Below are positions 5,416 to 58,396 of a stretch of 64,000 nt of DNA, one piece after another; positions within the stretch are counted from its first letter, which is position 1, and each line of letters begins with the position of its first letter. The notes under the pieces are model-generated. The model was not told where the DNA came from, did not search any database, and saw only the letters and a program-made list of their open reading frames with translations. The translations under genes were made by a program, and so were the position numbers. The DNA is from a virus (Duplodnaviria > Caudoviricetes): the IMG/VR virus record IMGVR_UViG_3300027608_000010; one strand, given 5' to 3'.

Positions 5416-5439
5416 ATAAGATTTTAAAAGGAAATCATT

Positions 5440-8404: not shown

Positions 8405-8436
8405 AATGATAAATACTCTATAATGGAGTGTTTACC

Positions 8437-8960: not shown

Positions 8961-8961
8961 A

Positions 8962-9897
8962 ATGTTTAAGTCAACATTAATCGCAGAACAACTTAAAAAG
9001 ATTCGTCCTTTATTAAAGGAAGCCAATCCACAGCAAAAACTTAAATTAATGAAACTAATGAAGGTTGCATTGAAAGAGAATTTTGATGAACGTATGGCAT
9101 TGATTCGTAAATTAGTCAGAACTGGTAAATATGACGCAAGTGATTTAGAATTAGCTACTACTGAACAACTGCGTGAATTATTAGATGGTCAACATGGTTT
9201 AGATGAAGACCAAGCTATACCACTGTCAGGAAAGATATCAGCAAGACCTAATCAAGATCCAAACTCATTTGAGGATTGGGATTATTACCATCAAGGTGAA
9301 CCAATACAACCAGGGTCCGATATACATACAAAAGTAAAAGATGTGCATTTACGCCAACGGGAACCTGCATATGATACAATGAGAAATGCTTTTGATAACC
9401 CTATACAACCAGGACCAATACTTCCGCAAAATCAATCAGGTGATACAATAATTCCATCACGTCCTAAACCTGCAGAAAAGATAAAAGATGCGGATGGTAA
9501 GCCAATTAGATTAAAAGATTTTGTCCCACATGATCCTGACATAATGGAAGATGATTTAAAATCAATTGATCCTGACGATCATGGAGAGACAGAAGGTCGT
9601 TTTGTAAAGAATCAAATACAAACTATGCTACGTGTTTTATCACATTTAGAAAATGCAATAGGTGATGACGAAAATTTACCTGAATGGGTACAAATGTTAC
9701 TTAGCCAATCACAAGATAAGATTGTAGGTGTCATGGATTATATGATTAGTGCCAAAGAACTTGCCAAAAAAGAACAAACGGGTAATCAAAGTATAATATC
9801 AGCATTAAGTATGCTGGAGGGGGAAAAACGTACTAAAACCGTTATCCCTAACAAGAAAAAAGTAAAAGAATCTAAAGATTTTCTACAAGAAAAATAA
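8962..9897 (+). CDS. modular putative internal head protein
   Basis: MFKSTLIAE leader; several [LIMV]xE junctions; carries module duplicated at 24785-25034. Confidence 0.7.
   Translation: MFKSTLIAEQLKKIRPLLKEANPQQKLKLMKLMKVALKENFDERMALIRKLVRTGKYDASDLELATTEQLRELLDGQHGLDEDQAIPLSGKISARPNQDPNSFEDWDYYHQGEPIQPGSDIHTKVKDVHLRQREPAYDTMRNAFDNPIQPGPILPQNQSGDTIIPSRPKPAEKIKDADGKPIRLKDFVPHDPDIMEDDLKSIDPDDHGETEGRFVKNQIQTMLRVLSHLENAIGDDENLPEWVQMLLSQSQDKIVGVMDYMISAKELAKKEQTGNQSIISALSMLEGEKRTKTVIPNKKKVKESKDFLQEK
9211..9460 (+). repeat. 250-bp coding module, copy 1
   Basis: QAIPLSGKISARPNQDPNSFEDWDYYHQG...QSGDTIIPS; colinear without gaps with 24785-25034. Confidence 0.95.
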
Positions 9898-9904
9898 TTC
9901 GGGG

Positions 9905-9946
9905 TGGTCCTCAGTGTGTAAATAATTACATCATTTAAGAGGACCA
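9905..9946 (+). promoter_or_regulatory. RBS-sequestering hairpin containing a late promoter
   Basis: TGGTCCTC (9905-9912) pairs with GAGGACCA (9939-9946, includes RBS); TAAATA at 9919 lies inside. Confidence 0.65.
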
Positions 9947-9947
9947 A

Positions 9948-10916
9948 ATGGCAACTAAAAAAACTAAAGTAACACCCGAAGCAGCACCCGTAGCAGCACC
10001 GGTAGCCGAGGCAGCCCCTACTGCAAAAAAGGCAACAAAATCAATTAAATCTACTAAAGAACCCAAAACGGTTCCTGTAGAAAAGGTTCAAGAAATTGCT
10101 GAACAGGCAGCTAAAGAACAAGCTCCACAACCCGGACAGATTCAAGTTAACGTTGACTATCTAAAAACAACCAAAGTACACATTGCAATGCCATGTTACG
10201 GTGGTATGTTGACTGAAAGTACATTCATGTCATTTATTAAGTGGGCTAATACTGCCCGTCAACTTGGTATTGACTGGACATTGGAAACAATGGTTAATGA
10301 ATCATTAATCAGTCGTGCTCGTAATACACTAACAGCTAAGTTCTTAGAACAAGAAGGCTCAACGCATTTATTCTTTGTTGATGCTGATATTGGTTGGGAA
10401 CCATGGCACTTGTTAGTATTAATCAACCGTGACGTTGACGTTATCGGTGGATTGTATCCAATGAAAACTATGCCGATCAAGTGGGTAGTTAATGGATTTG
10501 ATGGTGCTGAAGAAGGTCCAGATGGATTCCAAGAAGTAAGTAAAGCAGGTACCGGATTCTTGTTAATGAAGCGTCATGTATTTGAAAAACTTAAAGCACA
10601 TCCTGCTGTTAAGCAATACAAGAACGACATTGGATTAGATCCAAAATTTGACGCACATTTAAAGACATATTTTGATACAGCAGTTCGTCAAAATCGTTAC
10701 TACAGTGAAGACTGGACATTCTGTGAAAACTGGCGTGATCTAGGTGGTAAAATCTATGTTGATAAACGTGTATTATTGCGCCATAGTGGTAGCTATGTAT
10801 TCTGTATGGAAAATCAGGATCATTTGATGAATTCAATTGGTCCTATGTATGTTCAAGAATTACAGAAGAAACAAGCTGAAGCCGCTCAACAAGCAGCCGC
10901 AACCCCAGCACAATAA
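9948..10916 (+). CDS. GT-A fold glycosyltransferase-like protein with A/P/K-rich N-terminal arm
   Basis: IAMPCYGG, ISRARN, LFFVDADIGW (DxD), GTGFLLMKR, YSEDWTFC, LRHSG. Confidence 0.75.
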   Translation: MATKKTKVTPEAAPVAAPVAEAAPTAKKATKSIKSTKEPKTVPVEKVQEIAEQAAKEQAPQPGQIQVNVDYLKTTKVHIAMPCYGGMLTESTFMSFIKWANTARQLGIDWTLETMVNESLISRARNTLTAKFLEQEGSTHLFFVDADIGWEPWHLLVLINRDVDVIGGLYPMKTMPIKWVVNGFDGAEEGPDGFQEVSKAGTGFLLMKRHVFEKLKAHPAVKQYKNDIGLDPKFDAHLKTYFDTAVRQNRYYSEDWTFCENWRDLGGKIYVDKRVLLRHSGSYVFCMENQDHLMNSIGPMYVQELQKKQAEAAQQAAATPAQ

Positions 10917-10936
10917 TAGAATTTAATTCTATTTTA

Positions 10937-10969
10937 ATGGCTATCACACACCGTGATAGCCATTTTTTT
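10937..10969 (+). terminator. intrinsic terminator
   Basis: ATGGCTATCAC-acacc-GTGATAGCCAT followed by T6. Confidence 0.9.
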
Positions 10970-11001
10970 ATATAAATACTATATACTAAGGATTATCTAC
11001 T

Positions 11002-11307
11002 ATGTTCTCATTTTTATTTTCTAACCCGCCGTTTAGTAAAGCACCACCGTATAATATATCTATGCCAATTTCAGCACCAAACTTAAATGATAAGATGGAA
11101 CCAACAGCACCTAAAGTTAACACTAATTTTAACAGTTGGTTTGGGGTCTCTATAGGTTATTCTGCATCGTTATTTGGAAAACCGTCAACTCCTCCTACGA
11201 AACCGGCTTCCACAACCATACCAACAACAAGCCGTATTGCAACACCGTCAACTATTGCTACAAATTCAAAGATGACTATAACTAAAAAAGGTTTATTTAA
11301 TTGGTAA
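11002..11307 (+). CDS. hypothetical P/S/T-rich protein
   Basis: TATAAATA at 10971 and AAGGA RBS precede it. Confidence 0.6.
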   Translation: MFSFLFSNPPFSKAPPYNISMPISAPNLNDKMEPTAPKVNTNFNSWFGVSIGYSASLFGKPSTPPTKPASTTIPTTSRIATPSTIATNSKMTITKKGLFNW

Positions 11308-11313
11308 AATACA

Positions 11314-12180
11314 ATGAATTTTAATGAATTAAATAGTTTCAACATGTCGGATGCTGTTCGTTTTCACGAACATTTGAATCCTGCCATATTTAACGGTGAC
11401 CACATGAAAGAAAACGTAAGAGAGCAATTATTATTGATTGCTAGCGATTTTATAGAACATCTTGGCTTATCTGATTTAGCAATTCAAGATATCACTATCT
11501 CTGGAAGTAATGCAGCCTATAGTTATACTAATCTAAGTGATATTGATTTACATCTATTGGTTGATATGACTCAGTTCAACGAAGATGATGTTTACCGTGA
11601 ACTGTTTGACGCTAAAAAGACTGTATATAATGATAACCACGACATATTGATTGATGGGTATGAAGTAGAATTATATGTACAGGATAGTAATGAACCTGTT
11701 ATTAGTCTTGGTGAGTACTCAGTAATGAATGATAAATGGTTAAAGCTACCTAGAAAACGCAAAGCAGACTTTGACCAAGTTGCTACTAAATTGAAATATC
11801 GCAAGTTATACAAGTTAGCAGGATATGCATTAAAGTCTGATGATCCAGAAAAGATTAATAGATTAATTAATACTGTTAAGAAATATAGAAGAATTGGATT
11901 AGATTATAATGGTGAGTTTGGCCCAGAAAATATTGCATTTAAAGCATTGCGTAATAAAGGTATAATTAAGAAATTATATGAGAAATTACAATTACTACAC
12001 AGTCAACGATTAAGTTTACCTGAGTCCAGCGGGTACATCCCAAGCCCAAATGAAAAGAATGATAGACGATGGATGACTGCATTAACCGCAGATATCACAC
12101 CATTTACAATGCAACAAAATGCTAAGAAATTAGGAAGTAAAATAAGTCGTGCGGGTATCCCACCGTTACTTAGACCATAA
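11314..12180 (+). CDS. pol-beta-superfamily nucleotidyltransferase
   Basis: ITISGSNA...LSDIDLHLLV (GS + DxD), third acidic residue in YEVELYVQD. Confidence 0.75.
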   Translation: MNFNELNSFNMSDAVRFHEHLNPAIFNGDHMKENVREQLLLIASDFIEHLGLSDLAIQDITISGSNAAYSYTNLSDIDLHLLVDMTQFNEDDVYRELFDAKKTVYNDNHDILIDGYEVELYVQDSNEPVISLGEYSVMNDKWLKLPRKRKADFDQVATKLKYRKLYKLAGYALKSDDPEKINRLINTVKKYRRIGLDYNGEFGPENIAFKALRNKGIIKKLYEKLQLLHSQRLSLPESSGYIPSPNEKNDRRWMTALTADITPFTMQQNAKKLGSKISRAGIPPLLRP

Positions 12181-12199
12181 GAATAAGAAGGAAGATTAA

Positions 12200-15100
12200 A
12201 TGTCAAAAATTTGGATAAAACCGCAACAAGTAGATATAACTCAAGACCCAGGACTTAGTCCTCCTGTTGTACCTAAAGAAGATTTAGGTCTTGGATTTGT
12301 AGATGCTAACTCAACGTTTACTACCTCAACACCGTCAACACCTTTAACCAATACGGTTAATAACATTTATATCACCCGAGGTCCTAGAGGACGTGATGGA
12401 CAAGTTCAATTTAATGAAGATGGTTCTTATACAGGTGATCCTGGATTGTTATATGAGCCGAATTCAGATACATTGACTACTGGAACATTAGACGTTAACC
12501 AGCTTAATGCAAATCGTGCAAATTTAGGTTCTATCAATTATCTAACTATATTAGGTGGAAACAATAGAGATGTATTAAAAACAAATGGTAGTGGTGTTAT
12601 TACTTGGGCAAGTGCATTCCCATCAGATGTAGGTAATAGTGGTAAATTCTTAATGACCAATGGCATTAGTCAGCAATGGGCACATCCTAGCTATACGAAT
12701 TTAGTTGATGTCCCATCAAATATTGCTACTCAAAGTTATGTTGGAAATGCTATTGCTAATCTAGTAGATAGTTCACCGGCAGCATTGAATACATTAAATG
12801 AACTTGCAACTGCTTTAGGTAATAACGCAAATTACGCAACTGATATTACAAATATTTTAGCAAATAAAGCAAACGTTACTTATGTAGATAATAAACTTGC
12901 AAACATTACGTGGGCTAATTTAACTGGTAGACCCACTATACCGGATGCACAAATCAACAGTGATTGGACTGAAACAAATGTAGCCAGTAAAGCATTTATT
13001 CAAAATAAACCAACACTAGGTAATATTTCTAATATCAATATTAGTGGCAGTAGTTCTCAGGTATTTTATGGTAATGGTATTTTTGCTAGTTTGCCTGCCG
13101 AAGTTAATTTAGGTAATCTAACTTTTAATGGAAATAATTTATCATCTACTAGCAATGTGGTTATCATTACTACTAATGGAGCTGATGGATTAACTCAGTT
13201 AGAAAATAAACATATCAATGGTGATACATATGTTTGGTTAGACGAAGGTAATGTAAAAATAGAAGCCGACGGAAATGTTTGGACTTTTGCTAATAGTGGT
13301 AATTTAATGTTACCAGCTGGTGGTGACATCTTAGATAGTACAGGTAATAGTGTATTGGGTGTTAGTGGCGCAAACACAGGCAATATTACATTTAGTGGCA
13401 ACGAAATTGGATCTACTGGCAATTTTATTAATATTACGTCAACGACTGGATATGTTCAATTAGAAAACTTAGATTCAACCAATGGTTCTACTTATATTTA
13501 CCTACAAGAAGGTAATGTATTTGTAGAAAACAATGAGGGAACTTGGACATTTCATAACACTGGATCATTATTATTTCCAGAAACGTCAAATGTTGAATTT
13601 GCTATAGTAATAAATGACACACTTGGTGAAATGAGTATTAGTACTGATAGTGGAAATATAGCTATATGGCCGGAAAATAGTAAGTGGTTGTTTGGCGCAG
13701 ATGGTAACTTAACATTACCGGCTAATACATTTAGTGTTAACTATGCTAATGGTACTCAAGTGTCCTTAGGTGGAGGCGGTGGAGCGAACACCGGCAATAT
13801 TACATTCAGTGATACTACAATGGCTAGTACAAATGGTAATGTTAAGATTGGGTTTTCCCCTTCAGCAAGTCCTGCAGTAGAATTTACGTTTACTGATAAT
13901 GGTAACTTAGTGTTACCACAAGGTACTATCTTAAGTGAAACAGCCAACTCAACAACCATCACACCACCGAATGCATTAGCTGGACAGGGTTTAGTAGTTC
14001 GCTTAACAGGGGTTCAAGGAATTGTTTCCGATCATCCAGGTGGATTTACTGACGGTGATACTATAACTCTAACTGTAACTCCTGATTATGGCAGTGCCCA
14101 AGTTACTGGAACATTAGATTATACATTTACTGGAGCTACTAGTGTACAATTAGGTAGAGCGTTAACAGGCACATTGACATTTACTAATGAAGTTTCTAAA
14201 CCAATAAGTTGGACTATACCAGTATCAAGTACTATGACAACTTTCACTGTCACCATTAGCAATGCATCAGGGTTTACTATTACTAGTGTTGATAACACAC
14301 TTACACTGTCAACTACCGGTAGTACTGAAGACCATCATATTCACTTAATAGCAGGTGATCCTTCAATCACTGACATATATTTAGGTGATGATGACCAGTA
14401 TGTTAAAATTGAAAAGAACGGTGGTAATGTAGTTATCGGAACTGATACAAATAATAAGCAATGGACCTTTGACACAAACGGTGCGCTAACATTCCCAGGT
14501 GGTGAAACATTTGAAAATGGACAAATAACAGCGACTGCAAATGGACAGGCTATGTTAGCCGACAATGCACTTAATAATTTTATCTGGGTTGATAGTAATG
14601 GTGCGTATATTGAAACAGATGATGGCACAGAAAATACCTGGACATTCGGTGATGATGGTAATTTATCAATGCCAGGCAATACTGTTGTCTCAACTCCTGA
14701 TAATACATCATTGAGATTACGCACTTCAAACAATGAATACGGTTCGACTAGTATTGAATTTGTTAGTGATATCAACGGACCTCATCCTTATACCTCTAAA
14801 GTTGAGGTTGACGGTGATGGTGTAAAGGTACATAACAGTGGTGATACTGTAGTTTGGAGTTTTAGTGGTGGTACATTTAACTTACCAAATGATAGTACAG
14901 GAAATGGTGTAATTTATTCTAACGTTGCTAATGCACAGTTATACACTGATAGAACTGGTAATGCTCAGGTAAGTATTCGTTCTAAAGGTATCGCCGGTGA
15001 CAAGACCTGGGCATTCAAAGACAACGGAGAAGTACAGTTTCCGGACAACACATTACAAACTACTGCATACAGAAACAGACCATTAACTAATCTGAACCTA

Positions 15101-15262
15101 GATGGCGGTAGTGCAAGTGTAGTTTTTGAAATTGATATGGCATTTGTTGATGGTGGCGGAAGTTTCTTACGTGGCATTCTATCACAAGATATATATGACG
15201 GCAATGATGGTGGTGCAACCATAACACAATTTGATAAAATATTAGACGGAGGCCAATCATAA
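12200..15262 (+). CDS. long tail fibre / receptor-binding-like protein
   Basis: 1020 aa, G/N/T/S-rich; SPAALNTLNELATALGN fibre motif; repeated W-x-F-x(2)-dGnL-x-LP modules. Confidence 0.8.
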   Translation: MSKIWIKPQQVDITQDPGLSPPVVPKEDLGLGFVDANSTFTTSTPSTPLTNTVNNIYITRGPRGRDGQVQFNEDGSYTGDPGLLYEPNSDTLTTGTLDVNQLNANRANLGSINYLTILGGNNRDVLKTNGSGVITWASAFPSDVGNSGKFLMTNGISQQWAHPSYTNLVDVPSNIATQSYVGNAIANLVDSSPAALNTLNELATALGNNANYATDITNILANKANVTYVDNKLANITWANLTGRPTIPDAQINSDWTETNVASKAFIQNKPTLGNISNINISGSSSQVFYGNGIFASLPAEVNLGNLTFNGNNLSSTSNVVIITTNGADGLTQLENKHINGDTYVWLDEGNVKIEADGNVWTFANSGNLMLPAGGDILDSTGNSVLGVSGANTGNITFSGNEIGSTGNFINITSTTGYVQLENLDSTNGSTYIYLQEGNVFVENNEGTWTFHNTGSLLFPETSNVEFAIVINDTLGEMSISTDSGNIAIWPENSKWLFGADGNLTLPANTFSVNYANGTQVSLGGGGGANTGNITFSDTTMASTNGNVKIGFSPSASPAVEFTFTDNGNLVLPQGTILSETANSTTITPPNALAGQGLVVRLTGVQGIVSDHPGGFTDGDTITLTVTPDYGSAQVTGTLDYTFTGATSVQLGRALTGTLTFTNEVSKPISWTIPVSSTMTTFTVTISNASGFTITSVDNTLTLSTTGSTEDHHIHLIAGDPSITDIYLGDDDQYVKIEKNGGNVVIGTDTNNKQWTFDTNGALTFPGGETFENGQITATANGQAMLADNALNNFIWVDSNGAYIETDDGTENTWTFGDDGNLSMPGNTVVSTPDNTSLRLRTSNNEYGSTSIEFVSDINGPHPYTSKVEVDGDGVKVHNSGDTVVWSFSGGTFNLPNDSTGNGVIYSNVANAQLYTDRTGNAQVSIRSKGIAGDKTWAFKDNGEVQFPDNTLQTTAYRNRPLTNLNLDGGSASVVFEIDMAFVDGGGSFLRGILSQDIYDGNDGGATITQFDKILDGGQS

Positions 15263-17778
15263 TGGCAAATAGAATACAAATAAGACGAGACAGTGAAGAA
15301 AACTGGGTTGATGCTGACCCAGTATTAGCTGACGGAGAACTAGGATTAAACTACGATAATAATCAAATCAAGATTGGTGATGGGACAAACACTTGGACTA
15401 GCTTATCTTATAGTGGTTCTAGTACAGGTAATGTTACATTCAGTGACCAAGTTATAGTAGGTACCGGCGACATTGATGGTGGTGGTAGCGGATTATATTT
15501 GTCTCCGGGCGCTAACAGCACAGCTAATCTACAATATCTCAGAGTGCGTGGTGGAGATGACAGTGGTCACATTCATTTGGACACAGGCAACAACACAATA
15601 TATGACCAATTCTTCGGCAATGATAACAAGTATCTTAAATTAGAAGCTGGCGACACCGGTAATATAGTAATAAGCACAGACGGAACCTATGAATGGCAAT
15701 TTGGCAGCAATGGCAATTTAACACTGCCACAAGGTACTACTATAAGTGAAGCAACAAATATTGTTACTGTTACATTAGACCAGTTAACTGCTATCTCAGC
15801 CTGGACTGGAACTTTGGTTTTTACCAAAGTCAGTGACACATTATATCAAGCATTACCGAGTGGTCCAACTATGGAACTGGTTGTTGGTATTTGGAGACTT
15901 AGGTCTAATACTGCTACTTACTATGACTCAACAGACCTTATAACTTGGGGAACTGTTGCCGGTTCGTTGCCTGCGCCGGTTGGTACTACAGAGATATTGG
16001 AAACAATGAACCTAACAGTGGGTAGTAATGTTTGGACCTTTGGCGACGATGGCAACTTAACACTACCAGGCAATGCTTTTGCAGTTAACTATGCTAACGG
16101 TACACAAGTATCAATCGGCGGTGGTGGTAATGCTAACACAGGCAATATTACATTTGACGATAATATTGTTATTGGCACAGGCGATGAATTTGGCAGTACC
16201 GGATTGTATTTGGCCCCTGGAAATGCTAGTATTGCTAATAGTGCAGTACAATATTTAAGAGTGCGTGGAGGTGATGTTGCCACACACATTCACCTTGATA
16301 CAGGCAACAACGCTTATTTTGACCAATACTTTGGTGATGACGACAAGTATGTAAAACTGGCTAATACCGGCAATGTCGTAATCGGTACTGATGATGCCAA
16401 TGGAAACTCAGCACAATGGACATTTGGCACAGATGGTAACTTAACTACACCAAGTAATTTAGTGATTGGCACAGGAGCTGGTAGTGGTTCAAGGATATTT
16501 CAATATGACGATGGTCTAGAAATTGTAGGAGAAGGTGCTAACTCCGTTGTACTAATGGGTTGGACAGCAAATATAAGCGCACCCGATAGTGTTGCAACAA
16601 TAGCAATGAATTACCCAAGTGGTGGCGAAGGTAATATATTGATTGCTGTAGGTAATAACGCAACCACTGTACACAGCTGGCTTTTTGGCAATGATGGTGA
16701 CTTAAAATTACCTGCAGGCGGTGATATTGTAGACAGTACTGGTACTAGTGTATTAGGCGGTGGCGCGGGTGGCGGTATAGCATTAACAGATTTAAGTATT
16801 GGTACTGATGGTACACCAACTGGTGGTGGTAATATTTCATATGCCAATTCAACTGGTGTATTTACATATACTCCGCCGGTAATACCTGATGTTAGTGGAT
16901 TTGCATTAACAAGTGATATACCTGATGTTAGTGGGTTCGTAACAGGCACGCCTTGGACGAGTGCAGGTTATTTAACAACTATCACAAATATATTCAATCA
17001 AGACTTGAATACAACTAACAATGTTACATTTAGTAGTGTAATCACTAGCAATGTACAAGCAACTAACGGCTCACCCGCTGTGGCAAGTCCAGTGGCTGTC
17101 GGTGGTGCCGGCTCTTTGTTAACAATCAGTGCAGGTGATGGCGGCATTGCGGCTACCGGTGTTAATGCTGGGGCAGGTGGTAATCTAACAATCACTGCAG
17201 GTGATGCTGGTTCTGATATAGGTAACCCAAGTTGGGGAGAGATAGGCGGTACTCTTGTTATAAGAGGTGGAAATTCCTCAAGACCTTATCATGGTAGTGA
17301 TGTTCAAATTCACAGCGGTAATGCTGTAGCATCACCCGGTGCAATATCTTTATACACTGGCACAAATCAATGGACATTTGGCAAAACTGGTAACTTAACA
17401 TTACCAGTTGGTGGCAACATTTTAGATAGTACAGGTACTAGTGTATTGTTCAGTGGTGACTATACTGACTTGACCAACAAACCAACTATATTAGCTGAAC
17501 CTGCGTTCAGTGTTCAAACAACAGACTTCAATGCAACAGCAGGTTCTAGATATGGTTTTGATACAACAACAGGAGTAGTAACTGCAACATTACCAGCAAG
17601 CCCAGCAACAGGTGATGCAATTTATTTTGCAGATGCAAGTGGTACAACGTCAACTAATAATTTCATAATTGCTAGAAACAGTCAAACAATTATGGGTTCA
17701 GCAAGTAATATGACAGTTAATGTCAACGACCAAAGTTTTGGGTTGTTCTATAATGGAACAACTTGGAGAGTTTATTGA
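15262..17778 (+). CDS. tail fibre protein with Mtd-type N-terminal domain
   Basis: MANRIQIRRD...PVLADGELG...KIGDGTNTWTSLSY (Mtd_N pattern); internal duplicated blocks; C-terminal TLPASPATGDAI..D...IIARN fibre motif. Confidence 0.82.
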   Translation: MANRIQIRRDSEENWVDADPVLADGELGLNYDNNQIKIGDGTNTWTSLSYSGSSTGNVTFSDQVIVGTGDIDGGGSGLYLSPGANSTANLQYLRVRGGDDSGHIHLDTGNNTIYDQFFGNDNKYLKLEAGDTGNIVISTDGTYEWQFGSNGNLTLPQGTTISEATNIVTVTLDQLTAISAWTGTLVFTKVSDTLYQALPSGPTMELVVGIWRLRSNTATYYDSTDLITWGTVAGSLPAPVGTTEILETMNLTVGSNVWTFGDDGNLTLPGNAFAVNYANGTQVSIGGGGNANTGNITFDDNIVIGTGDEFGSTGLYLAPGNASIANSAVQYLRVRGGDVATHIHLDTGNNAYFDQYFGDDDKYVKLANTGNVVIGTDDANGNSAQWTFGTDGNLTTPSNLVIGTGAGSGSRIFQYDDGLEIVGEGANSVVLMGWTANISAPDSVATIAMNYPSGGEGNILIAVGNNATTVHSWLFGNDGDLKLPAGGDIVDSTGTSVLGGGAGGGIALTDLSIGTDGTPTGGGNISYANSTGVFTYTPPVIPDVSGFALTSDIPDVSGFVTGTPWTSAGYLTTITNIFNQDLNTTNNVTFSSVITSNVQATNGSPAVASPVAVGGAGSLLTISAGDGGIAATGVNAGAGGNLTITAGDAGSDIGNPSWGEIGGTLVIRGGNSSRPYHGSDVQIHSGNAVASPGAISLYTGTNQWTFGKTGNLTLPVGGNILDSTGTSVLFSGDYTDLTNKPTILAEPAFSVQTTDFNATAGSRYGFDTTTGVVTATLPASPATGDAIYFADASGTTSTNNFIIARNSQTIMGSASNMTVNVNDQSFGLFYNGTTWRVY

Positions 17779-17796
17779 TAAAATAAGGAATAGGAA

Positions 17797-18771: not shown

Positions 18772-18860
18772 TATGAAACATACTAAAAATGGTATAATAA
18801 CTCAGTGGGAAACCGCAAGTTGTTGAGAAAAACTATAAATATAACAAATGGAGACATTAA

Positions 18861-20222
18861 ATGGCAAGTAAAATACAATTAAGACGAGATACAGCAATCA
18901 ATTGGTCTAACAACAGTTCAGTTGTACTATCATCCGGAGAACCCGGATTTGAAACAGATACCGGTAAATTCAAAATTGGTAACGGTGTTGACAACTGGAA
19001 TAGTTTAGACTATGCTGGTGGTGCAGTCACAAACAACGGTTCAGTATATATAGGTGATGGTGCAGGTAGTTGTAGTAGCGCATGTTGCTCAGTTGGTATT
19101 GGAAATTGTGCAGGTAATTGTTGTCAAGGATGTTGTGCAGTTGCTATCGGCGATCAAGCAGGAGAATACTGTCAAGGATCTAATGCAGTTGCTATTGGAA
19201 ATTGTGCAGGACAATGCTGTCAAGGATCTTATGCAGTTGCTATAGGTTCTTGTGCGGGTGAGTGCTGTCAAGGATGCAATGCTATTGCTATTGGTCAATG
19301 TGCAGGACATTACTGTCAAGGATCTAACGCTATTGCAATTGGTCAATGTGCAGGATATGGCTGCTGTTGCGAAAGTGGTCAATCAGATTATGCAATTGCA
19401 ATAGGTAATGACGCAGGTTATTGTGACCAAGGGACTTATGCTATTGCAATTGGTAAAAATGCAGGTTATTGTTCTCAGGGAGATTGTGCTATTGCTATAG
19501 GTCATTGTGCAGGTAATTGTTGTCAAGGTTTTGGTGCTGTGGCTGTAGGAGATATTGCAGGTAATTGTGATCAAGGTGATCACGCTGTAGCGATAGGTTA
19601 TGCTACAGGAAATTGTAATCAAGGTCACGGTGCTGTTGGTATAGGTGTATCAGCAGGTCGAAACTCTCAAGGTGAATACGGTATAGCTATTGGGTATCGT
19701 ACAGCTAGATGTAATCAACAAACAAACGCTATTGCAATTGGTACATACGCAGCCGAAGCAGATGTATTTTATACTGTTGAGCATGACGGTGCTTATGTTG
19801 GAACTAACGACGGTTCAGACAGTACAATAACATTAACTAATGCATTTGATTTTAGTTCGGTGCGCCCAGGCATGGTACTTACTAATAACGGGTATAACAA
19901 TATGTTAATATTATCTATTAGTGGAAATACATTAACATTAGCAGGAACACCCAATAACGGATCAGTGATTTCCGGTAATCAGTTCAATGTTGATGGTCGT
20001 CAAGGTACGAATGCTATTGCTATTGGTGCATATGCCGCAAGATATTCTCAATCACCTAATAGTATCGTAATCAATGCAACAGGAAGCGAATTACGAAGTC
20101 AAGGTACTGGTACAACAGTAATTCAATCATTAAGACAGGTATCAGGTGGAACTGCACCGAGTGGATTTACTCCGGTATACTGGAACCCAACAACAGGTGA
20201 ATTAATCACTGTTACAGCATAA
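18861..20222 (+). CDS. Mtd_N fibre with Cys-rich YadA-head-like 14-aa repeats
   Basis: MASKIQLRRD...GEPGFETDTGKFKIGNG; about 16 repeats of C-x-QG-xx-A(I/V)AIG-xx-AG. Confidence 0.8.
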   Translation: MASKIQLRRDTAINWSNNSSVVLSSGEPGFETDTGKFKIGNGVDNWNSLDYAGGAVTNNGSVYIGDGAGSCSSACCSVGIGNCAGNCCQGCCAVAIGDQAGEYCQGSNAVAIGNCAGQCCQGSYAVAIGSCAGECCQGCNAIAIGQCAGHYCQGSNAIAIGQCAGYGCCCESGQSDYAIAIGNDAGYCDQGTYAIAIGKNAGYCSQGDCAIAIGHCAGNCCQGFGAVAVGDIAGNCDQGDHAVAIGYATGNCNQGHGAVGIGVSAGRNSQGEYGIAIGYRTARCNQQTNAIAIGTYAAEADVFYTVEHDGAYVGTNDGSDSTITLTNAFDFSSVRPGMVLTNNGYNNMLILSISGNTLTLAGTPNNGSVISGNQFNVDGRQGTNAIAIGAYAARYSQSPNSIVINATGSELRSQGTGTTVIQSLRQVSGGTAPSGFTPVYWNPTTGELITVTA

Positions 20223-20247
20223 TTTAAATATATAAAAGGAAATAAAA

Positions 20248-20460
20248 ATGGCACAATATAACATCACAGCTACATCAGCTAAAGCAAATAACAATGCAGG
20301 TATGACTGTATCTAATACTAAAACTAATAAGCACCCTAGTCCAGCAGAGTTTGAGACTCAAGTATTAGCACAAAAAAATGCTGACAAGTACGCTAAACGT
20401 CTAAGTAGCAACGACCACGAAGGCGTTCAGGACTGGGTTGGTCACGCTACCCCAGTTTAA
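20248..20460 (+). CDS. hypothetical protein
   Basis: 70 aa, AAGGA RBS, TAAATA at 20225. Confidence 0.7.
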   Translation: MAQYNITATSAKANNNAGMTVSNTKTNKHPSPAEFETQVLAQKNADKYAKRLSSNDHEGVQDWVGHATPV

Positions 20461-20705
20461 TCTTTAGTTGAACTTATAATGACCGTAGATGATTCTTTGT
20501 CTACGGTCATATATCCCTCACACGCAAAGTTCCAATCGTCTCCGCCTGCACCGTTACCAGTAACTTCATCCTGTACAGGTACGTTAATCTTTACATGTTT
20601 AACGAGATATTCTACCCCATTCTCAAACACACGCCATGCGTGATCCACCGAACCACGGCCGGGTTGTCCCCTAGACTTGTTGAATCTTATATGATACTTG
20701 TTCAT
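20457..20705 (-). CDS. hypothetical protein
   Basis: 82 aa, coupled to upstream oxygenase on minus strand. Confidence 0.75.
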   Translation of the reverse strand: MNKYHIRFNKSRGQPGRGSVDHAWRVFENGVEYLVKHVKINVPVQDEVTGNGAGGDDWNFACEGYMTVDKESSTVIISSTKD

Positions 20706-21334
20706 ATAATAATAGGGCCCGCTTTTACTGGCTTAGTGCTAGGTCTAACACCAAGATTAAAGTGAACTAATCGTGTTGGGTCTTTACTAGGATTACGAGT
20801 AACGCTATGCGGTAACCAACTGTTAATAAAGTACATTCTTCCCGGTTGAGGAACAAACAATATTGTTTCACTAGAATCAGTTATTTTATTTAAATTGGCT
20901 TCACGTAAATTAACCAATCTACGACCTTGTCTTGGGTCGTGAATAGCAACTTTACAACTATCCTTAGGTGTATCAATAAAATAGAATCCAGTAATTTGAT
21001 TCCCATCACCGTGAACATGTTCTTCATGGCCTTGCATATAATGATGTTCTTGTGCCCACATTTCTGTAAAATATGTTTCCTTGTCACTCATAGCATGACC
21101 TTGATTATCTAAGATAGTCCAAGCACTTTGTGCTATAAAAGCAGTAAAATCACTAATCATTTCTTCATGGAAGATACTTTCAGTCTGTACCGGGTATATC
21201 GGGTTTACTTCAGACTTCTTTCTTTCAAACAGATATTGCATTGAAATTAGTGTAACCATGTCTAAGAATTCCGGTTTATCTACAGAATAGATTGTACTAG
21301 GAAAATGTTGATGGGGGGTTAGTGTCGTAGTCAT
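20702..21334 (-). CDS. 2OG-Fe(II) oxygenase (TIGR02466-like)
   Basis: W....GHEEHVH...ITGFYFI...IHDPR...PQPGRMYFINSWLPHSV...R..HFN DSBH pattern. Confidence 0.8.
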   Translation of the reverse strand: MTTTLTPHQHFPSTIYSVDKPEFLDMVTLISMQYLFERKKSEVNPIYPVQTESIFHEEMISDFTAFIAQSAWTILDNQGHAMSDKETYFTEMWAQEHHYMQGHEEHVHGDGNQITGFYFIDTPKDSCKVAIHDPRQGRRLVNLREANLNKITDSSETILFVPQPGRMYFINSWLPHSVTRNPSKDPTRLVHFNLGVRPSTKPVKAGPIII

Positions 21335-21418
21335 AGATAATACTTATCTTTCCTAGGATATCCTCACAAATTTTAAACTTATGGATTTGTGATAAATATA
21401 AGATATACGGAATTTACT

Positions 21419-24400
21419 ATGAAAATAAGTCATTTACAAGAAAATCTTACACCTTCTTCTGCACCAAGCGCATCAGTTCCTGGACCTAAGTTTGGCCGCA
21501 GTGATGAAATGTTAGAGTCTGACACAGGATCTAGCGCAAGCACAACTGCAGGTACTATAGCTACGAGAACGGGCGAACAGCGTAAAGGTAAAAAGAGTAT
21601 ATTTCAAGGTATCAAAAATGCAGGTGGATTTGCTAATAGCAGAAAAGCAGGTATTGTTGGTGAGGGTGCTATCAATGAAGATGACTTAAGCGAAGAACAA
21701 CTACAAGCAAAGAAAAAACGAGAAGATTTATTCAACAGAGCAAAAGACCGCGATATAGGTAATAAACCAAAGTCACGTGAAATCATGGCAAGAGAATCTG
21801 ACACTGATGATAATCCTAAACCAGGTAGCTGGCAAGAAATAGCAAAATTAAATAACATTACTGATCCTAGAAAATTACAAGCTGACAAGTCAATTACTTT
21901 ACCTAACGGTGACAGTTATTATGTGAATAAAGGTGATACACTTAGTGGTATTGCACAAAGATTAAGAACAACAGTGTATCCACAATACGGAGAACCTGGA
22001 TCATCTACTGAGAAAACATCTACTGGAGATTCATCTAGTTTAACTAAACCAGCAATGTATGTAGGTGGTGTTAATAAACGAATGGCCACGCCTGTTGTAC
22101 AACCAGACCCAAGAGATTTAGAAAAAGGAAATAGTAGAGGCACACGACCAGATGTTGCGCTTCCACGATATCCTGATTCAGTATATGATTATAAACCAGA
22201 AGTATCAACATCTTCATCTAACACGATACATCCTCCGGGAACATCAATCACAGCTAAAATCAAAGATCCAAAAGCACCAAATTGGCCATTGGATGTGAAT
22301 TTAACAAAAGGTGATGACGGTAAGTGGCGCAATGAAAAGGGGCAATTACATAACTTTAATAAACCAGGCGATAAAGAACAATTAGAAAAGATGCCAGCAC
22401 TCCCGCCAAATCAGTCTAGTGCTGAGACCAAGCGTCTTAATAGTATCCCAAAGAATAAAGAGCCTGATATTCATAGTCAAGCCGCACAAGATGCACAATG
22501 GGAAAAAGATAAAGAAAATATGGGCAATGCATGGGATGAGTTTAAAGGCTGGGTTAAGAAACCTAGGTCTTTTACTATAGTACCTGGAAAAGATAAACCT
22601 CCAGTTGATCCAGCACATGATATTGGTCAACGTGCAGGACTATCACCGGATGAAATAGTTAAAAGACTTAAGTCAGCACCTGGTGGTAAAGATGATACTC
22701 CACCAGCTAAACCTCAGAAATCAACGACAAGTAAAGCATCTTCTGCATCACCTAATCTTTCTCCTGACCACAAAGTTATTGCTGGAATAGAAAGCGGTAA
22801 TAAAGATTATAAAGATGACGGCACTCCAGTTGTTTCTCCTAAAGGTGCACAGTTTGCAATGCAGGTTATGAAAGATACAAACAGAGATCCAGGATTTGGA
22901 GTAGTTCCAGCTAAAAATAATAGTCCTGAAGAATCAAACAGAGTTGGAAGAGATTATTTTGATGCAATGATGAAAAAATATAATGGGGATAAGGAAAAGG
23001 CTTCAGCCGCATATAACGCCGGTCCTGGCAGAGTAGATAGTAAAATAGCAAAAGCTGAAAAAACCGGTAAAGATTGGAAAGATTTGTTACCAAGAGAAAC
23101 AAGAAATTACATAAAGAAATTCAATAAAGGAACTCAAGTGGCCTCAAGTAATGATGATACAATGAATGAAGATATTAGTCAAAAATATGCAAGAGACTAT
23201 GAATATATTCTTACTTACTTATTGTCTGAGGTAAAACAACTTCCGAGTAGACCATTTGATTTACCACCATTAGAAGGTGGCAGTAAAATTACTGAATTAT
23301 TAGAGTTTGATGTTAGCAGTGCTGCTAAACGAGCAGGTAAAAAACTTGTACCCGGATTTGGATTCGTTGATGCTGGTATAAGAGCAAAAGACGGTGATTA
23401 TACTGGTGCGGCGATCGGTACATTAGCAGGCATTGCTGGTTTAATACCGGGAGGTCAGGGAGTATCATTGGGTGCAGATGCAGTAAATCAATTACGGGAT
23501 TATGCTCAAGAAAAAGGTGGATGGGGTAACTTGGCCAAAGAAGTTGGACAATCAATGTCAGATTATTATGGTCAGCAAGGTAACTTAATTCCCGAGGATC
23601 TAGAAATACTAGATGAGCAAGGATTTCTTAGATGGTTGGAAGAACAAGATTTACATAATTTAAGTGAAGCCGGGGGACTCCGAGGATTGGTCTGGGATGC
23701 TGTTAAAGCAGGAGCTGGGAAGTTAAAAAATTTAGTCAAACCTGCTGAAAGAGAAGTTGACAATCTTAAAAGATTAGATCAAAGAGTAGAACCCGGATTT
23801 ACACCTCCAGCTGTACAAGTTCCGCCTGCACCGACCGGAACAACAGCGGCAACTAAAGTGACACCTCCAAAACCTGCTCCAGTTGATACCAGACAGTCAC
23901 CGATACTTGGACCCGACGGAAAACCTCTTAACGTTCCTGTCAATCCCAAAATTACAAATACTAATGTAGGTCCGGGAGGTAGCAGAGAAGCTCAAGCATA
24001 TAGGGCACAACAATCAGCACCGGCAGCTCAAGCAGCACCAGTAGATAAACCACAACCAACAGCAGGCGTACTTAGCCCGGAAGACTCGGCTGCCATACAG
24101 GCCTTGAGAAGAAAAAATGCTCCTCAAGGCTGGGAACATGTAGTTGATTTCGGAAAAAACGCAATTGGCACAGGGACCAAATTGGGCACAGGTGCCGGTC
24201 TCGGGGCATTAATATATAATTATGCACCGGAGATAAAAAAGAAATGGGACGATGGGGTGGATGCAGTGGGTTCTGCTTATAATGAATTTTTTCCAGCACC
24301 TCCAAACCAGGACGAGGTTCAACGACAGGTTGACGATTATACCAAGCCCAAGACACCACCAGTAGAAATAAAAAAGCCAGATAATGAAGTTACTAACGGA

Positions 24401-25522
24401 AAAGATACTGCACCACCAAAAATAGAAAAGTCAGATGATACTACTAACGGTAAAGATTCCGCATCGCCAGACACTGACACGCCGGATGCTGACGAGGTTG
24501 CTAGACAGGTGAAAGCTATGACAGATAAAACAAACGAATCTACAGTATCACGTATGGTTGATGAGTATGAACAAATTCTTGAATCGTTAATGGGTAAGTT
24601 AAGTTTATCAGAAGAACGCACTGAAACTAAAAATGAAAAAGGTGAAGTTACGAGCTGGAGAGATGAATCTGATTGGCGCAAGGTCAAAAAAGTTAAAGAC
24701 GGCCGCGGTCGGGTAACAAATCTAAGCGATAAGGCACGTAGAGAAACCGAAACGCTAACACAGAAAAAAGATGTGACAGAAGAACAAGCTGTACCACTAT
24801 CAGGAAAGATATCAGCAAGACCTAACCAGGATCCAAACTCATTTGAAGATTGGGATTATTACCATCAAGGTAAACCAATACAACCAGGTACTGATATACA
24901 CACAAAAGTAAAAGATTTACATATGCGTCAATCAGATCCAGCATATGATACAATGAGAAATGCATTTGATAATCCTATACAACCAGGATCAACACTTCCC
25001 CAAGATCAATCAGGTGATACGATTATTCCATCACATCAGAAGCAGCCAAGAGGAGTAAAAGGACCGAATGGTGAAAAATTTCAATTCGATACAGATGAAA
25101 AAGCAAAATATTTTTTAGACAACATGCAACGATTACATCAACAAGATCAAGAGAGAGAGAGTCCTGATGCGATCAGATCCGAATCAACAAGTGCTAAGAA
25201 GAAAGGCATGGGCGGACAAGTTGTATTCTCTGGTACAGGAGACAACGGTGGTAAGTATGAAATCATCCAATCTGGAGATGATTTTATGATTCACGCCAAT
25301 GGTAAACACATTGATTCTTATGGAAGTCTACAACGAGCAATGAGTGTTCTACAAAATGAAGTGCCAGGATTAACTAAAACTGTAGCAGAAGAAAAGCCAG
25401 GACTATGGGCTAATATAGCTGCCAAAAGAAAACGTATTGCTGCAGGTAGTGGTGAACACATGCGTAAGCCAGGCAGCAAGGGCGCACCAACAGCAGACGC
25501 ATTAAGAAAGTCAGCAAAATGA
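21419..25522 (+). CDS. giant modular virion/ejection-like protein with LysM and lytic transglycosylase (SLT) domains
   Basis: MKISHLQE leader; LysM-like YYVNKGDTLSGIA and WQEIAKLNNITDP; SLT IAGIESG...SPKGAQFAMQVM...AAYNAGPGRV...ETRNYIKK. Confidence 0.8.
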   Translation: MKISHLQENLTPSSAPSASVPGPKFGRSDEMLESDTGSSASTTAGTIATRTGEQRKGKKSIFQGIKNAGGFANSRKAGIVGEGAINEDDLSEEQLQAKKKREDLFNRAKDRDIGNKPKSREIMARESDTDDNPKPGSWQEIAKLNNITDPRKLQADKSITLPNGDSYYVNKGDTLSGIAQRLRTTVYPQYGEPGSSTEKTSTGDSSSLTKPAMYVGGVNKRMATPVVQPDPRDLEKGNSRGTRPDVALPRYPDSVYDYKPEVSTSSSNTIHPPGTSITAKIKDPKAPNWPLDVNLTKGDDGKWRNEKGQLHNFNKPGDKEQLEKMPALPPNQSSAETKRLNSIPKNKEPDIHSQAAQDAQWEKDKENMGNAWDEFKGWVKKPRSFTIVPGKDKPPVDPAHDIGQRAGLSPDEIVKRLKSAPGGKDDTPPAKPQKSTTSKASSASPNLSPDHKVIAGIESGNKDYKDDGTPVVSPKGAQFAMQVMKDTNRDPGFGVVPAKNNSPEESNRVGRDYFDAMMKKYNGDKEKASAAYNAGPGRVDSKIAKAEKTGKDWKDLLPRETRNYIKKFNKGTQVASSNDDTMNEDISQKYARDYEYILTYLLSEVKQLPSRPFDLPPLEGGSKITELLEFDVSSAAKRAGKKLVPGFGFVDAGIRAKDGDYTGAAIGTLAGIAGLIPGGQGVSLGADAVNQLRDYAQEKGGWGNLAKEVGQSMSDYYGQQGNLIPEDLEILDEQGFLRWLEEQDLHNLSEAGGLRGLVWDAVKAGAGKLKNLVKPAEREVDNLKRLDQRVEPGFTPPAVQVPPAPTGTTAATKVTPPKPAPVDTRQSPILGPDGKPLNVPVNPKITNTNVGPGGSREAQAYRAQQSAPAAQAAPVDKPQPTAGVLSPEDSAAIQALRRKNAPQGWEHVVDFGKNAIGTGTKLGTGAGLGALIYNYAPEIKKKWDDGVDAVGSAYNEFFPAPPNQDEVQRQVDDYTKPKTPPVEIKKPDNEVTNGKDTAPPKIEKSDDTTNGKDSASPDTDTPDADEVARQVKAMTDKTNESTVSRMVDEYEQILESLMGKLSLSEERTETKNEKGEVTSWRDESDWRKVKKVKDGRGRVTNLSDKARRETETLTQKKDVTEEQAVPLSGKISARPNQDPNSFEDWDYYHQGKPIQPGTDIHTKVKDLHMRQSDPAYDTMRNAFDNPIQPGSTLPQDQSGDTIIPSHQKQPRGVKGPNGEKFQFDTDEKAKYFLDNMQRLHQQDQERESPDAIRSESTSAKKKGMGGQVVFSGTGDNGGKYEIIQSGDDFMIHANGKHIDSYGSLQRAMSVLQNEVPGLTKTVAEEKPGLWANIAAKRKRIAAGSGEHMRKPGSKGAPTADALRKSAK
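24785..25034 (+). repeat. 250-bp coding module, copy 2
   Basis: QAVPLSGKISARPNQDPNSFEDWDYYHQG...QSGDTIIPS; matches 9211-9460. Confidence 0.95.
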
Positions 25523-57678: not shown

Positions 57679-57746
57679 GCCCAAAATTTGACAATAAATG
57701 GATACTCTGCTATACTACGTGTATTGATTAATTAAAGGAGCTATCA

Positions 57747-58339: not shown

Positions 58340-58396
58340 CAATAAATGGATTAGGGTATATAATAGACTCTTAGACAGTAAAGAAAAGGAAACGAA

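What the first reader, a model, noticed from the sequence alone, without database searches (positions are those of the whole stretch)
9211..25034. A 250-bp peptide module copied between two unrelated virion genes 15.5 kb apart, starting at a Glu cleavage-type site
Seen: 9211-9460 and 24785-25034 align without gaps (roughly 85% nt identity by eye). Each copy begins right after a candidate site (LDE|DQAIPL; VTE|EQAVPL), and the flanking protein contexts are unrelated. Inference: modules move between cargo polyproteins as self-contained units released by the prohead protease, supporting a cassette-shuffling system.
Basis: partly seen in the sequence, partly recalled or inferred. Interest (0 to 1): 0.7.

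Follow-up and report, generated by a model that had tools for sequence, protein, structure and literature searches.

The report
Shuffled protein module in giant phage
Two unrelated late genes of an uncultured freshwater giant phage share an 85-residue protein module that was spliced in, in frame, at a short Lys-Asp-Val-Thr-Glu joint; lake samples hold alternative modules at the same joint, so the phage reshuffles proteins it probably packs into its head, though cutting and packing are unmeasured.

Summary
The repeat is real. Window 9208-9462 and 24782-25036 align without gaps at 88% nt and 86% aa identity, with dN/dS 0.19. Both copies are in frame: one in a 311-aa protein (8962-9897), one in a 1367-aa LysM/transglycosylase protein (21419-25522).

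Metagenome relatives show the module ("Mb") in at least 12 unrelated contexts. Positional orthologues of the large protein are 93-98% identical in DNA up to nt 24782, then carry a different module. Independent lake samples hold both alleles, so this is not an assembly artefact.

The large-gene copy is not a copy of this genome's small gene. It is aa-identical over 88 residues to a "long" allele of that gene in related phages (dS 0.19 versus 0.38). An 18-nt K-D/E-V-T-E microhomology marks the 5' crossover. The 3' edge is not at a Glu site, and the copy lacks the module's last ~30 residues.

Release by the head protease remains inference. It rests on conserved hydrophobic-x-Glu motifs on both sides of the full module, T4-like leaders, late-promoter boxes, and a gp21-type protease in the nearest named phages.

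This scan had already noted the same linker-jointed "cargo polyprotein" theme in this genome and in about 40 others. This is a further instance, with a new joint and population evidence.

The parts
8408..8415 (+). T4-late-promoter-like box GATAAATA, 22 nt before the ATG at 8438. This is the first gene of a tightly packed set of three: a 55-aa ORF, a 118-aa ORF and P0001.
   Evidence: 5 of 9 [TG]ATAAATA boxes on the + strand lie 19-25 nt before an ORF start
8962..9897 (+). P0001, 311 aa. It is a mosaic of a leader, a helical N module (10-82), Mb (83-196) and a helical C module (about 197-279). No Pfam or PHROG family matches.
8962..8988 (+). Leader MFKSTLIAE, resembling a capsid-targeting sequence. 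It is conserved as M-[FS]-K-S-x-L-I-A-E in all orthologues.
9199..9207 (+). Junction L-D-E (residues 80-82) just before Mb. In 'long' alleles of related phages a 60-aa extra module is inserted exactly after the equivalent I-D-E.
9208..9462 (+). Mb core, copy A (P0001 residues 83-167)
9463..9549 (+). Pro-rich tail of the full Mb (residues 168-196), ending in the conserved D-P-D-I-M-E site. This part is absent from copy B.
21391..21398 (+). Late-promoter-like box GATAAATA, 20 nt before the ATG at 21419
21419..25522 (+). P0002, 1367 aa from the ATG at 21419. All orthologues start there; the listed GTG at 21389 is probably not used. It contains LysM (residues 177-196 in the numbering from 21389), an SLT lytic transglycosylase domain (481-561) and a C-terminal string of shared modules.
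21419..21442 (+). Leader MKISHLQE, conserved as M-K-I-[SN]-x-L-x-E in the family
24536..24781 (+). Module Ma (residues 1050-1131), ending in K-D-V-T-E. In other proteins at least 11 different modules follow its conserved K-x-E-V-[AT]-E end.
24765..24782 (+). 18-nt microhomology AAAAAGAWGTGACRGAAG. It is shared by the end of Ma in the SLT-gene family and by the linker before Mb in long alleles of the P0001 gene, and it is the inferred 5' crossover. DNA homology to L004 and L005 ends at 24782.
24782..25036 (+). Mb core, copy B (P0002 residues 1132-1216)
25202..25390 (+). Module Mc (residues 1272-1334), ending in T-V-A-E. It is found at about 80% identity in dozens of other long proteins.
25391..25519 (+). 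Module Md (residues 1335-1377), a basic C-terminal tail (phrog_16028). It also occurs in small podoviruses of Synechococcus, Pelagibacter and Limnohabitans.

Best explanation
Mb is a phage-specific protein module of about 114 residues. It has a small folded part (three short strands and two helices) followed by a proline-rich tail. In a clade of freshwater T4-related giant phages it behaves as an interchangeable in-frame cassette.

Its usual home is the P0001 gene. Copy B arose when a 'long' allele of that gene, from a related co-infecting phage or an earlier state of this lineage, recombined with the LysM/transglycosylase gene. The 5' crossover used an 18-nt stretch encoding K-D/E-V-T-E that both genes carry at a module boundary. 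The 3' crossover fell inside the module's tail. The incoming piece replaced a LysM-type module that most relatives still have, and both alleles persist in lake populations.

Shown: the repeat, purifying selection on it, junction-exact replacement, the donor lineage, and the polymorphism.

Inferred: both host proteins are made late and enter the prohead through a short T4-like leader. A gp21-type head protease cuts after the hydrophobic-x-Glu joints. Mb would then be freed as a 12.9-kDa acidic peptide from P0001, and as part of a roughly 203-residue fragment (1132-1334) from P0002. What Mb does once freed is unknown.
For: Repeat and selection.

Mosaic contexts: the same module is fused to Pol-beta nucleotidyltransferases, cytidylyltransferase-like enzymes and QGVAE bead-string polyproteins. 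Only 16 clusters at 50% identity among 1.84 billion proteins hold it.

Junction-exact swap: L004 is 97.7% and L005 93.3% identical to the window up to nt 24782, then unrelated. P0056 is a hybrid that keeps the last 25 Mb residues. The L002 phage has Mb in the small gene only.

Donor: there is an 88-residue run of 100% identity to P0008, including K-D-V-T-E. dS is 0.185 to the L001 long allele against 0.38 to this genome's own P0001. Copy B lies with the P0001 orthologues, on their side of a 92/94 branch.

Population data: run X4 has a 313-nt contig with no differences bridging 24782 at depth 5.5, and a contig of the LysM allele leaving at 24782 at depth about 60. X6 shows the same. An X5 contig bridges the 3' edge with no differences.

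Protease reading: 38 of 42 instances have [LIVM]-x-E in a fixed register before Mb, across at least 12 unrelated upstream sequences, and 40 of 40 have it after the full module. The joints fall in low-pLDDT stretches of the model. Leaders. Late-type boxes. The nearest named phages by DNA polymerase (Phosso 48%, Atu_ph07 47%) both encode Peptidase_S77. T4 gp21 cuts after L/I-X-E, and a 10-residue leader loads proteins into the head (PMC9026906).
Against: No cleavage, packaging or virion datum exists. A gp21-type gene could not be sought in this genome or in the 257-261 kb relatives. V-T-E and I-M-E only loosely fit the published T4 rule L/I-X-E. The Glu and the residues after it could simply be part of the module's own conserved N-terminus. 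The 3' edge of copy B is not at a Glu site, and copy B lacks the module's downstream site, so 'cassette = cleavage unit' fails for this copy. Some Mb-bearing enzymes start without any leader. No DNA was available for P0008 or P0010, so the donor is inferred from protein identity and from L001. Resolution inside the P0001 clade of the tree is poor.
Confidence: 0.6

Rival explanations
1. Ordinary domain shuffling in multidomain ('polyvalent') virion proteins, without proteolysis. Modules stay covalently linked, and the hydrophobic-x-Glu motif is just a conserved linker or the first residues of the module. The short DNA homology at linkers alone explains why swaps are junction-exact.
For: All the recombination evidence is equally explained by this reading. 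Polyvalent phage proteins with 2-15 domains, including lysozyme-type domains, are documented without a requirement for head-protease cutting (PMC5512222). The 3' edge of copy B is not at a Glu site. The only test tried for a role of Mb in the uncut chain, self-association, returned no verdict.
Against: The P3 hydrophobic and P1 Glu positions are kept while P2 and P1' vary, on both sides of Mb, in at least 12 unrelated contexts. Mb directly follows a T4-like leader ending in L-I-A-E in some proteins. Nearest named relatives have the T4-type protease.
Confidence: 0.3
2. Mb is not cargo but a targeting or core-binding domain. On this reading P0001 is a head-core protein, and proteins fused to Mb are carried into the prohead through Mb. 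Mb is then clipped off at its two flanking Glu sites like a propeptide.
For: Mb is flanked by cleavage-type sites on both sides. It sits at the extreme C-terminus of cytidylyltransferase-like enzymes that have no N-terminal leader, and directly behind the leader of nucleotidyltransferases. T4 Alt and gp21 have C-terminal propeptides (PMC9026906). Every P0001 orthologue keeps Mb.
Against: There is no evidence that P0001 is a core protein: the gene is not next to portal, protease or capsid genes. Copy B lacks the downstream site.
Confidence: 0.15
3. Direct duplication or gene conversion inside this genome: copy A was copied into the SLT gene, or the reverse.
For: The two copies lie 15.6 kb apart in one genome and are 88% identical.
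Against: Copy B is closer to long alleles of other phages than to copy A. This holds for protein (88/88 residues against P0008, versus 74/90 against copy A), for nucleotide identity (91.8% versus 88%) and for dS (0.185 versus 0.38). Copy B also carries their K-D-V-T-E linker, not this genome's G-L-D-E. An older within-lineage duplication followed by replacement of the P0001 allele is not excluded.
Confidence: 0.1
4. Assembly artefact: a chimeric contig joined two genes through a shared repeat.
For: Metagenome assemblies can collapse or mis-join repeats, and several alleles coexist in the samples.
Against: Contigs assembled separately from two other studies' runs bridge the junctions with no differences: X4 covers 24742-25054 and X5 covers 24941-25400. 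The exact P0002 protein is on three contigs. P0056 from another study inherits the Mb tail and the same downstream sequence. The copies differ at 12% of bases, so they would not collapse.
Confidence: 0.02

Closest known systems
Phage T4 internal proteins IPI, IPII, IPIII and Alt: capsid-targeting sequence plus gp21 (Peptidase S77) processing (PMC9026906)
   Same: A short N-terminal leader ends in hydrophobic-x-Glu, and unrelated mature parts sit behind a common leader. Cutting after Glu at L/I-X-E is the T4 rule. The review itself suggests the leader is an evolutionary device for loading varied proteins. Genes are expressed late.
   Different: T4 cargo are single small proteins, each from its own gene. 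Here several unrelated modules are chained in one reading frame and exchanged at internal joints. Sites include V and M at P3. Nothing here has been shown biochemically.
Head and inner-body proteins of phiKZ, 201phi2-1 and SPN3US, cut many times after Glu (S/A-X-E) by a diverged gp21 homologue (PMC9026906, PMC5694885, PMC7411985)
   Same: These are giant phages with many head proteins cleaved at minimal x-x-Glu motifs, and with propeptides holding several redundant sites.
   Different: That is a different phage group and motif. The processed proteins there are paralogue families, and they are not reported as strings of interchangeable modules swapped at the cut sites.
Polyvalent proteins of phages and conjugative elements (Iyer et al. 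2017, PMC5512222; jumbo-phage overview PMC7824862)
   Same: Long multidomain proteins, predicted to be packaged and injected, with highly variable domain combinations including cell-wall hydrolases. P0002 fits this architecture.
   Different: Processing there is ascribed to embedded peptidase domains. No common in-frame junction motif or DNA microhomology is described as the site of exchange. Mb and its neighbour modules are not among the described domains (no Pfam match).
PeSL regulatory cassettes that mediate modular shuffling in T4-type genomes (Arbiol et al. 2010, PMC2839356)
   Same: Short conserved sequences flanking variable units act as linkers for homologous recombination by the T4-type recombination machinery, which needs only small patches of homology.
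   Different: PeSLs are intergenic promoter-terminator elements that move whole genes. Here the linker is coding, in frame, and moves parts of proteins.

Membership tests
T4-type capsid-targeted, gp21-processed head cargo | N-terminal leader of about 10 residues ending in a gp21 site | tested here: met
   P0001 family: M-[FS]-K-S-x-L-I-A-E. P0002 family: M-K-I-[SN]-x-L-x-E. Neighbouring genes start MKIKDILLE, MRITEIIAE and MRVSDLLLE. This is a pattern match only. The T4 leader sequence itself is recalled from my own knowledge, not from a tool.
T4-type capsid-targeted, gp21-processed head cargo | A Peptidase_S77 (gp21) prohead protease in the same genome | not testable with these tools
   No genome is held for the window, and the 257-261 kb relatives are not searchable. 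A protease search returned 8000 hits, and none could be tied to those contigs. The nearest named phages, Phosso and Atu_ph07, both have it.
T4-type capsid-targeted, gp21-processed head cargo | Cleavage after Glu at L/I-X-E | tested here: inconclusive
   The motifs are present and conserved at both Mb borders (38/42 and 40/40) and at the end of Ma. However, V and M occur at P3, and no cleavage was observed.
T4-type capsid-targeted, gp21-processed head cargo | Late expression | tested here: inconclusive
   GATAAATA boxes lie 20-22 nt before both transcription units. Metatranscriptome contigs cover parts of both genes, but DNA carry-over is not excluded.
T4-type capsid-targeted, gp21-processed head cargo | Presence in the virion and ejection into the host | not testable with these tools
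   The phage is uncultured and no proteome exists. The only support is PHROG names for the SLT region ('virion structural protein', 'internal virion protein with endolysin domain').
Polyvalent proteins (Iyer et al. 2017) | Two or more unrelated domains in one polypeptide, with variable combinations among relatives, in a phage late or virion context | tested here: met
   P0002 has LysM, SLT and at least four shared modules. Orthologues differ in module content.
Polyvalent proteins (Iyer et al. 2017) | Domains drawn from the described conflict repertoire, often with an embedded peptidase | tested here: not met
   No peptidase or described effector domain was found in P0001 or P0002 beyond LysM and SLT. 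Mb has no Pfam family and no fold match.
Tandem or dispersed DNA repeat without coding role | No constraint on the reading frame | tested here: not met
   Both copies are in frame and gap-free, with dN/dS 0.19.

The most novel reading that the evidence does not exclude
The hydrophobic-x-Glu joints do two jobs. They are cutting sites for the head protease, and their DNA is the homology patch where the T4-type recombination machinery swaps in-frame cassettes. On this reading, lake populations of these giant phages keep a standing pool of alternative cassettes at each joint (here Mb, a LysM-type module, or a third variant at nt 24760-24782). That would amount to an exon-shuffling-like way of diversifying the set of proteins injected with the DNA. 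Because every piece is released by cutting, almost any combination would be tolerated.
Probability: 0.4. Interest if true: 0.8.

Novelty: new variant of a known kind. Interest (0 to 1): 0.55.

Why it matters
If the joints are cut, one gene delivers several independent proteins, and recombination at the joints can change that set without ever producing a misfolded fusion. That would explain how giant T4-related phages turn over their injected proteins so quickly. It would also give a simple rule for finding such cargo in metagenomes, and it could suggest a way to load several designed proteins into T4-type capsids.

This locus is a clean natural experiment. The same joint carries different cassettes in one water sample, the donor allele is identifiable, and a hybrid recombinant (P0056) records a second exchange.

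The module itself is a conserved, selected, phage-only domain of unknown function. It recurs next to nucleotidyltransferases.

Tried and rejected
- INPHARED phages: blastn with 8000-12000 and tblastn with the module found nothing.
- IMG/VR: scans with the module and with an exact 41-mer found nothing. A scan with the GP88-like neighbour gave only a 4.9-kb fragment.
- Family searches: Pfam at E up to 1 and PHROGs gave no family for Mb, Ma, Mc, or the N and C modules of P0001.
- Fold searches with the Mb model (pLDDT 73): Foldseek against PDB and BFVD found nothing at E <= 0.001. ESM-Atlas rows were all at or below TM 0.33. VIA-align wide gave a best Z of 3.6. Scattered HIT-family rows at TM 0.2-0.3 are too weak to use. 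The Atlas feature search gave no usable hit.
- Self-association of Mb (two copies): complex prediction returned 'no answer'. This says nothing either way.
- Head protease in this lineage: no genome is held, the loci from assemblies are not searchable, and a search seeded with the Phosso protease returned 8000 hits that could not be linked to the 257/261-kb contigs.
- DNA for the best donor candidates P0008 and P0010 is not available.
- Scaffold hypothesis: I first guessed that P0001 was a scaffold protein next to a capsid gene. The neighbours are DnaJ, a ClpB-like ATPase, small virion-type ORFs and tail fibres, not a T4 head cluster, so I dropped it.
- All-against-all BLASTP of window ORFs found no third copy of Mb in the window.
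Full report
**Observation.** The repeat finder reports them as the only long dispersed repeat linking these genes: 9205-9498 against 24779-25072, 294 nt, 84%. Read codon by codon, the high-identity core is 9208-9462 against 24782-25036, which is 255 nt at 88% nt and 86% aa identity. At the 5' edge, identity rises from about 30% to about 90% within one codon. At the 3' edge it fades over about 40 nt. Both copies are in frame. Copy A is residues 83-167 of a 311-aa protein (P0001, 8962-9897). Copy B is residues 1132-1216 of a long protein (P0002, listed from GTG 21389). BLASTP gives E 1e-52, and the rest of the two proteins is unrelated. dS is 0.38 and dN/dS is 0.19, so both copies are maintained as protein.

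**The setting.** The window is AT-rich (37.6% G+C) and comes from a large phage. It has a family-B DNA polymerase, a clamp loader, PhoH, DnaJ, a ClpB-like ATPase, several tail-fibre genes and a GP88-family gene.
- Nothing similar is deposited as DNA.
- By DNA polymerase the nearest named phages are Sinorhizobium phage Phosso (48%) and Agrobacterium phage Atu_ph07 (47%), followed by RaK2-like phages. These are the T4-related 'group 2.2' jumbo phages of PMC7824862.
- Syntenic metagenome contigs of 257 and 261 kb exist.
- The stretch occurs in 20 freshwater runs from 16 studies.
- P0002 carries LysM and an SLT lytic transglycosylase domain. All its orthologues begin at the ATG at 21419 with M-K-I-[SN]-x-L-x-E.
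- P0001 orthologues all begin M-[FS]-K-S-x-L-I-A-E.
- Both transcription units sit 20-22 nt behind a GATAAATA box. Five of the nine such boxes on the + strand of the window lie 19-25 nt before a start codon.

**The module elsewhere.** A search of 5.8 billion proteins with P0001 showed that P0001 is itself a mosaic. Its N part (1-82), the module Mb (about 77-197) and its C part (about 185-279) each recur alone in other proteins.
- Mb is found behind leaders of Pol-beta nucleotidyltransferases, at the C-terminus of cytidylyltransferase-like enzymes, and inside a 1311-aa chain of modules joined by Q-G-V-A-E. It also occurs in several other contexts.
- An exhaustive profile-free search of 1.84 billion representatives found it in only 16 clusters, so the family is narrow.
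- In most contexts the module is about 114 residues long (P0001 83-196), and copy B holds only the first 85.
- With a 43-sequence alignment, AlphaFold gives a moderately confident small fold, with pLDDT above 80 for residues 11-70. It consists of three short strands and two helices, followed by an extended proline-rich tail.
- No Pfam family and no structural neighbour was found.

**Junction-exact replacement.** The C-terminal part of P0002 is a string of modules that each recur elsewhere: Ma (1050-1131), Mb (1132-1216 plus a tail), Mc (1272-1334) and Md (1335-1377).
- Positional orthologues, confirmed by the conserved GP88 and ferritin-like neighbours, are 97.7% (L004) and 93.3% (L005) identical in DNA up to window nt 24782. 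They then become unrelated, encoding a LysM-type module instead of Mb.
- L004 resumes homology at 24959, inside Mb. Its protein, P0056, is therefore a hybrid that keeps the last 25 Mb residues and the same downstream sequence. This means the Mb-bearing arrangement existed before that second exchange.
- The phage of L002 has Mb in its P0001 orthologue (94% nt identity) but none in its SLT protein.
- All ten P0001 orthologues carry Mb.
- So the context is fixed for the small gene and variable for the large one, and copy B is the derived state.

**Where copy B came from.** P0001 orthologues come in a short form (311-339 aa) and a long form (378-399 aa). The long form has an extra 60-residue module inserted exactly after the I-D-E that ends the N module, and that insert ends in K-D-V-T-E.
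- Copy B is identical over 88 consecutive residues to the long allele P0008, including K-D-V-T-E. Against this genome's own copy A it matches at 74 of 90 positions.
- At DNA level it is 91.8% identical to the long allele in L001, from 17 nt upstream of the joint, against 88% to copy A.
- dS is 0.185 against L001 and 0.38 against copy A.
- In a maximum-likelihood tree, copy B lies with the P0001 orthologues, on their side of a 92/94 branch, with a zero-length branch beside P0008.
- The end of Ma in the SLT-gene family and the linker before Mb in long alleles share AAAAAGAWGTGACRGAAG. This 18-nt patch is the likely 5' crossover.
- T4-type recombination needs only short homology (PMC2839356).
- The 3' crossover lies in the module's tail, where both partners have a loosely similar P-N-G-x-K motif. 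It is not at a Glu site.

**Not an artefact; a natural polymorphism.** Contigs from four runs of other studies were laid on 24400-25400.
- Run X4 has a 313-nt contig identical to 24742-25054, bridging the 5' joint at depth 5.5. The same run has a contig that follows the window to 24782 and then continues with the LysM-type allele at depth about 60. Run X6 shows the same two forms.
- Run X5 has a 616-nt contig, laid on 24941-25400 without a difference, bridging the 3' edge.
- A third variant leaves the window sequence at 24760 in X6 and in an RNA library.
- The exact P0002 protein is on three contigs.

**Are the joints protease sites?** T4 gp21 cuts after Glu at L/I-X-E, and a 10-residue leader ending in such a site loads proteins into the head. 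phiKZ-type phages use S/A-X-E (PMC9026906).
- Of 42 distinct Mb instances, 38 have [LIVM]-x-E in a fixed register just before the module, although the upstream sequences fall into at least 12 unrelated classes. The P2 and P1' positions vary.
- All 40 instances that keep the full module have [LIVMT]-x-E after the conserved D-P. Background frequency is 0.018 per residue.
- Ma ends in K-x-E-V-[AT]-E and is followed by at least 11 different modules.
- Both joints fall in low-confidence, probably flexible parts of the model.
- Phosso and Atu_ph07 each encode a Peptidase_S77 protease.

This is suggestive but indirect.
- The instances are homologous, so the counts are not independent.
- V and M at P3 stretch the T4 rule.
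- The protease could not be sought in this genome.
- For copy B, the next matching site downstream is V-A-E at 1334. Cutting would therefore release Mb joined to Mc as a piece of about 203 residues, not Mb alone.

**Verdict on mechanism.** In-frame cassette exchange at a short conserved joint is shown. Head targeting and cutting are the best reading, at about even odds on their own. A plain 'polyvalent protein' reading without cutting (PMC5512222) explains the recombination data equally well. A third possibility is that Mb is itself a removable targeting domain. It is flanked by sites on both sides, and it sits at the C-terminus of enzymes that lack a leader. A test of self-association gave no verdict.

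**Relation to earlier work.** This scan had already described linker-jointed 'cargo polyproteins' in other genes of this genome and in about 40 other genomes. Those are AI notes, which I used as leads. I checked the leaders, the T4 kinship and junction-exact swapping myself, on different genes. New here are:
- a second kind of joint (K-D/E-V-T-E rather than G-V-A-E);
- an identifiable donor allele;
- a hybrid recombinant;
- coexisting alleles in single samples.

I found no paper that combines prohead protease, polyprotein and jumbo phage. The closest published concepts are the T4 capsid-targeting system, polyvalent proteins, and PeSL-mediated shuffling (PMC9026906, PMC5512222, PMC2839356).

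Noticed in passing
window 57688-58831: Four copies of a 55-nt cassette: TTGACA, 17 nt, TATAAT/TATACT, then a shared leader ending in AAAGGAGCT. They are spaced 292-441 nt apart before small ORFs. They look like repeated strong sigma-70-type early promoter cassettes, reminiscent of the PeSL elements of T4-type phages.
   Followed up: no
window 19040-20051 (ORF 18861-20222): About 15 tandem 48-nt (16-aa) units, rich in Cys and in A-I-G-x-x-A-G, inside a fibre-like protein. Its N-terminus matches tail-fibre PHROGs.
   Followed up: no
L001 10001-11191 and proteins P0006, P0008-P0010, against window 9199-9207: P0001 orthologues exist as short and long alleles. The long ones carry a 60-residue extra module inserted exactly after the I-D-E joint and ending in K-D-V-T-E. 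This is a second junction-exact indel at this locus.
   Followed up: partly
window 24760: In run X6 and in an RNA library (X15), contigs leave the window sequence 22 nt before the Mb joint and continue with an unrelated sequence (D-P-G-A-K-E-F-E-K-E in frame). This is a third allele of the SLT gene tail.
   Followed up: no
window 25391-25519 (P0002 residues 1335-1377): The basic C-terminal tail module (G-L-W-A-N-I...K-R-K-R...M-R-K-P-G-S-K-G-A-P) recurs at 67-79% identity in small podoviruses of Synechococcus, Pelagibacter, Roseobacter and Limnohabitans. It also occurs inside many long metagenome proteins, so it is far more widespread than Mb.
   Followed up: partly
window 12200-17778: The two large fibre genes share several diverged repeats of 50-127 nt at 71-81% identity, and also repeats within each gene. 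This suggests recombination among fibre modules.
   Followed up: no
proteins P0012-P0015, P0022-P0026, P0030, P0048, P0075, P0182: Mb is repeatedly fused to nucleotidyl-transfer enzymes: Pol-beta nucleotidyltransferases at its C side and cytidylyltransferase/NMNAT-like enzymes at its N side. Its most conserved polar residues lie on one helix (H-x3-K-D-x-H). A functional link to nucleotides is possible but untested.
   Followed up: no
window 4603-7722: The phage encodes a full DnaJ (J domain plus C-terminal domain) and a 760-aa two-ring ClpB/ClpA-like AAA+ ATPase directly upstream of the P0001 operon. The same order is kept in the 261-kb relative L001.
   Followed up: no
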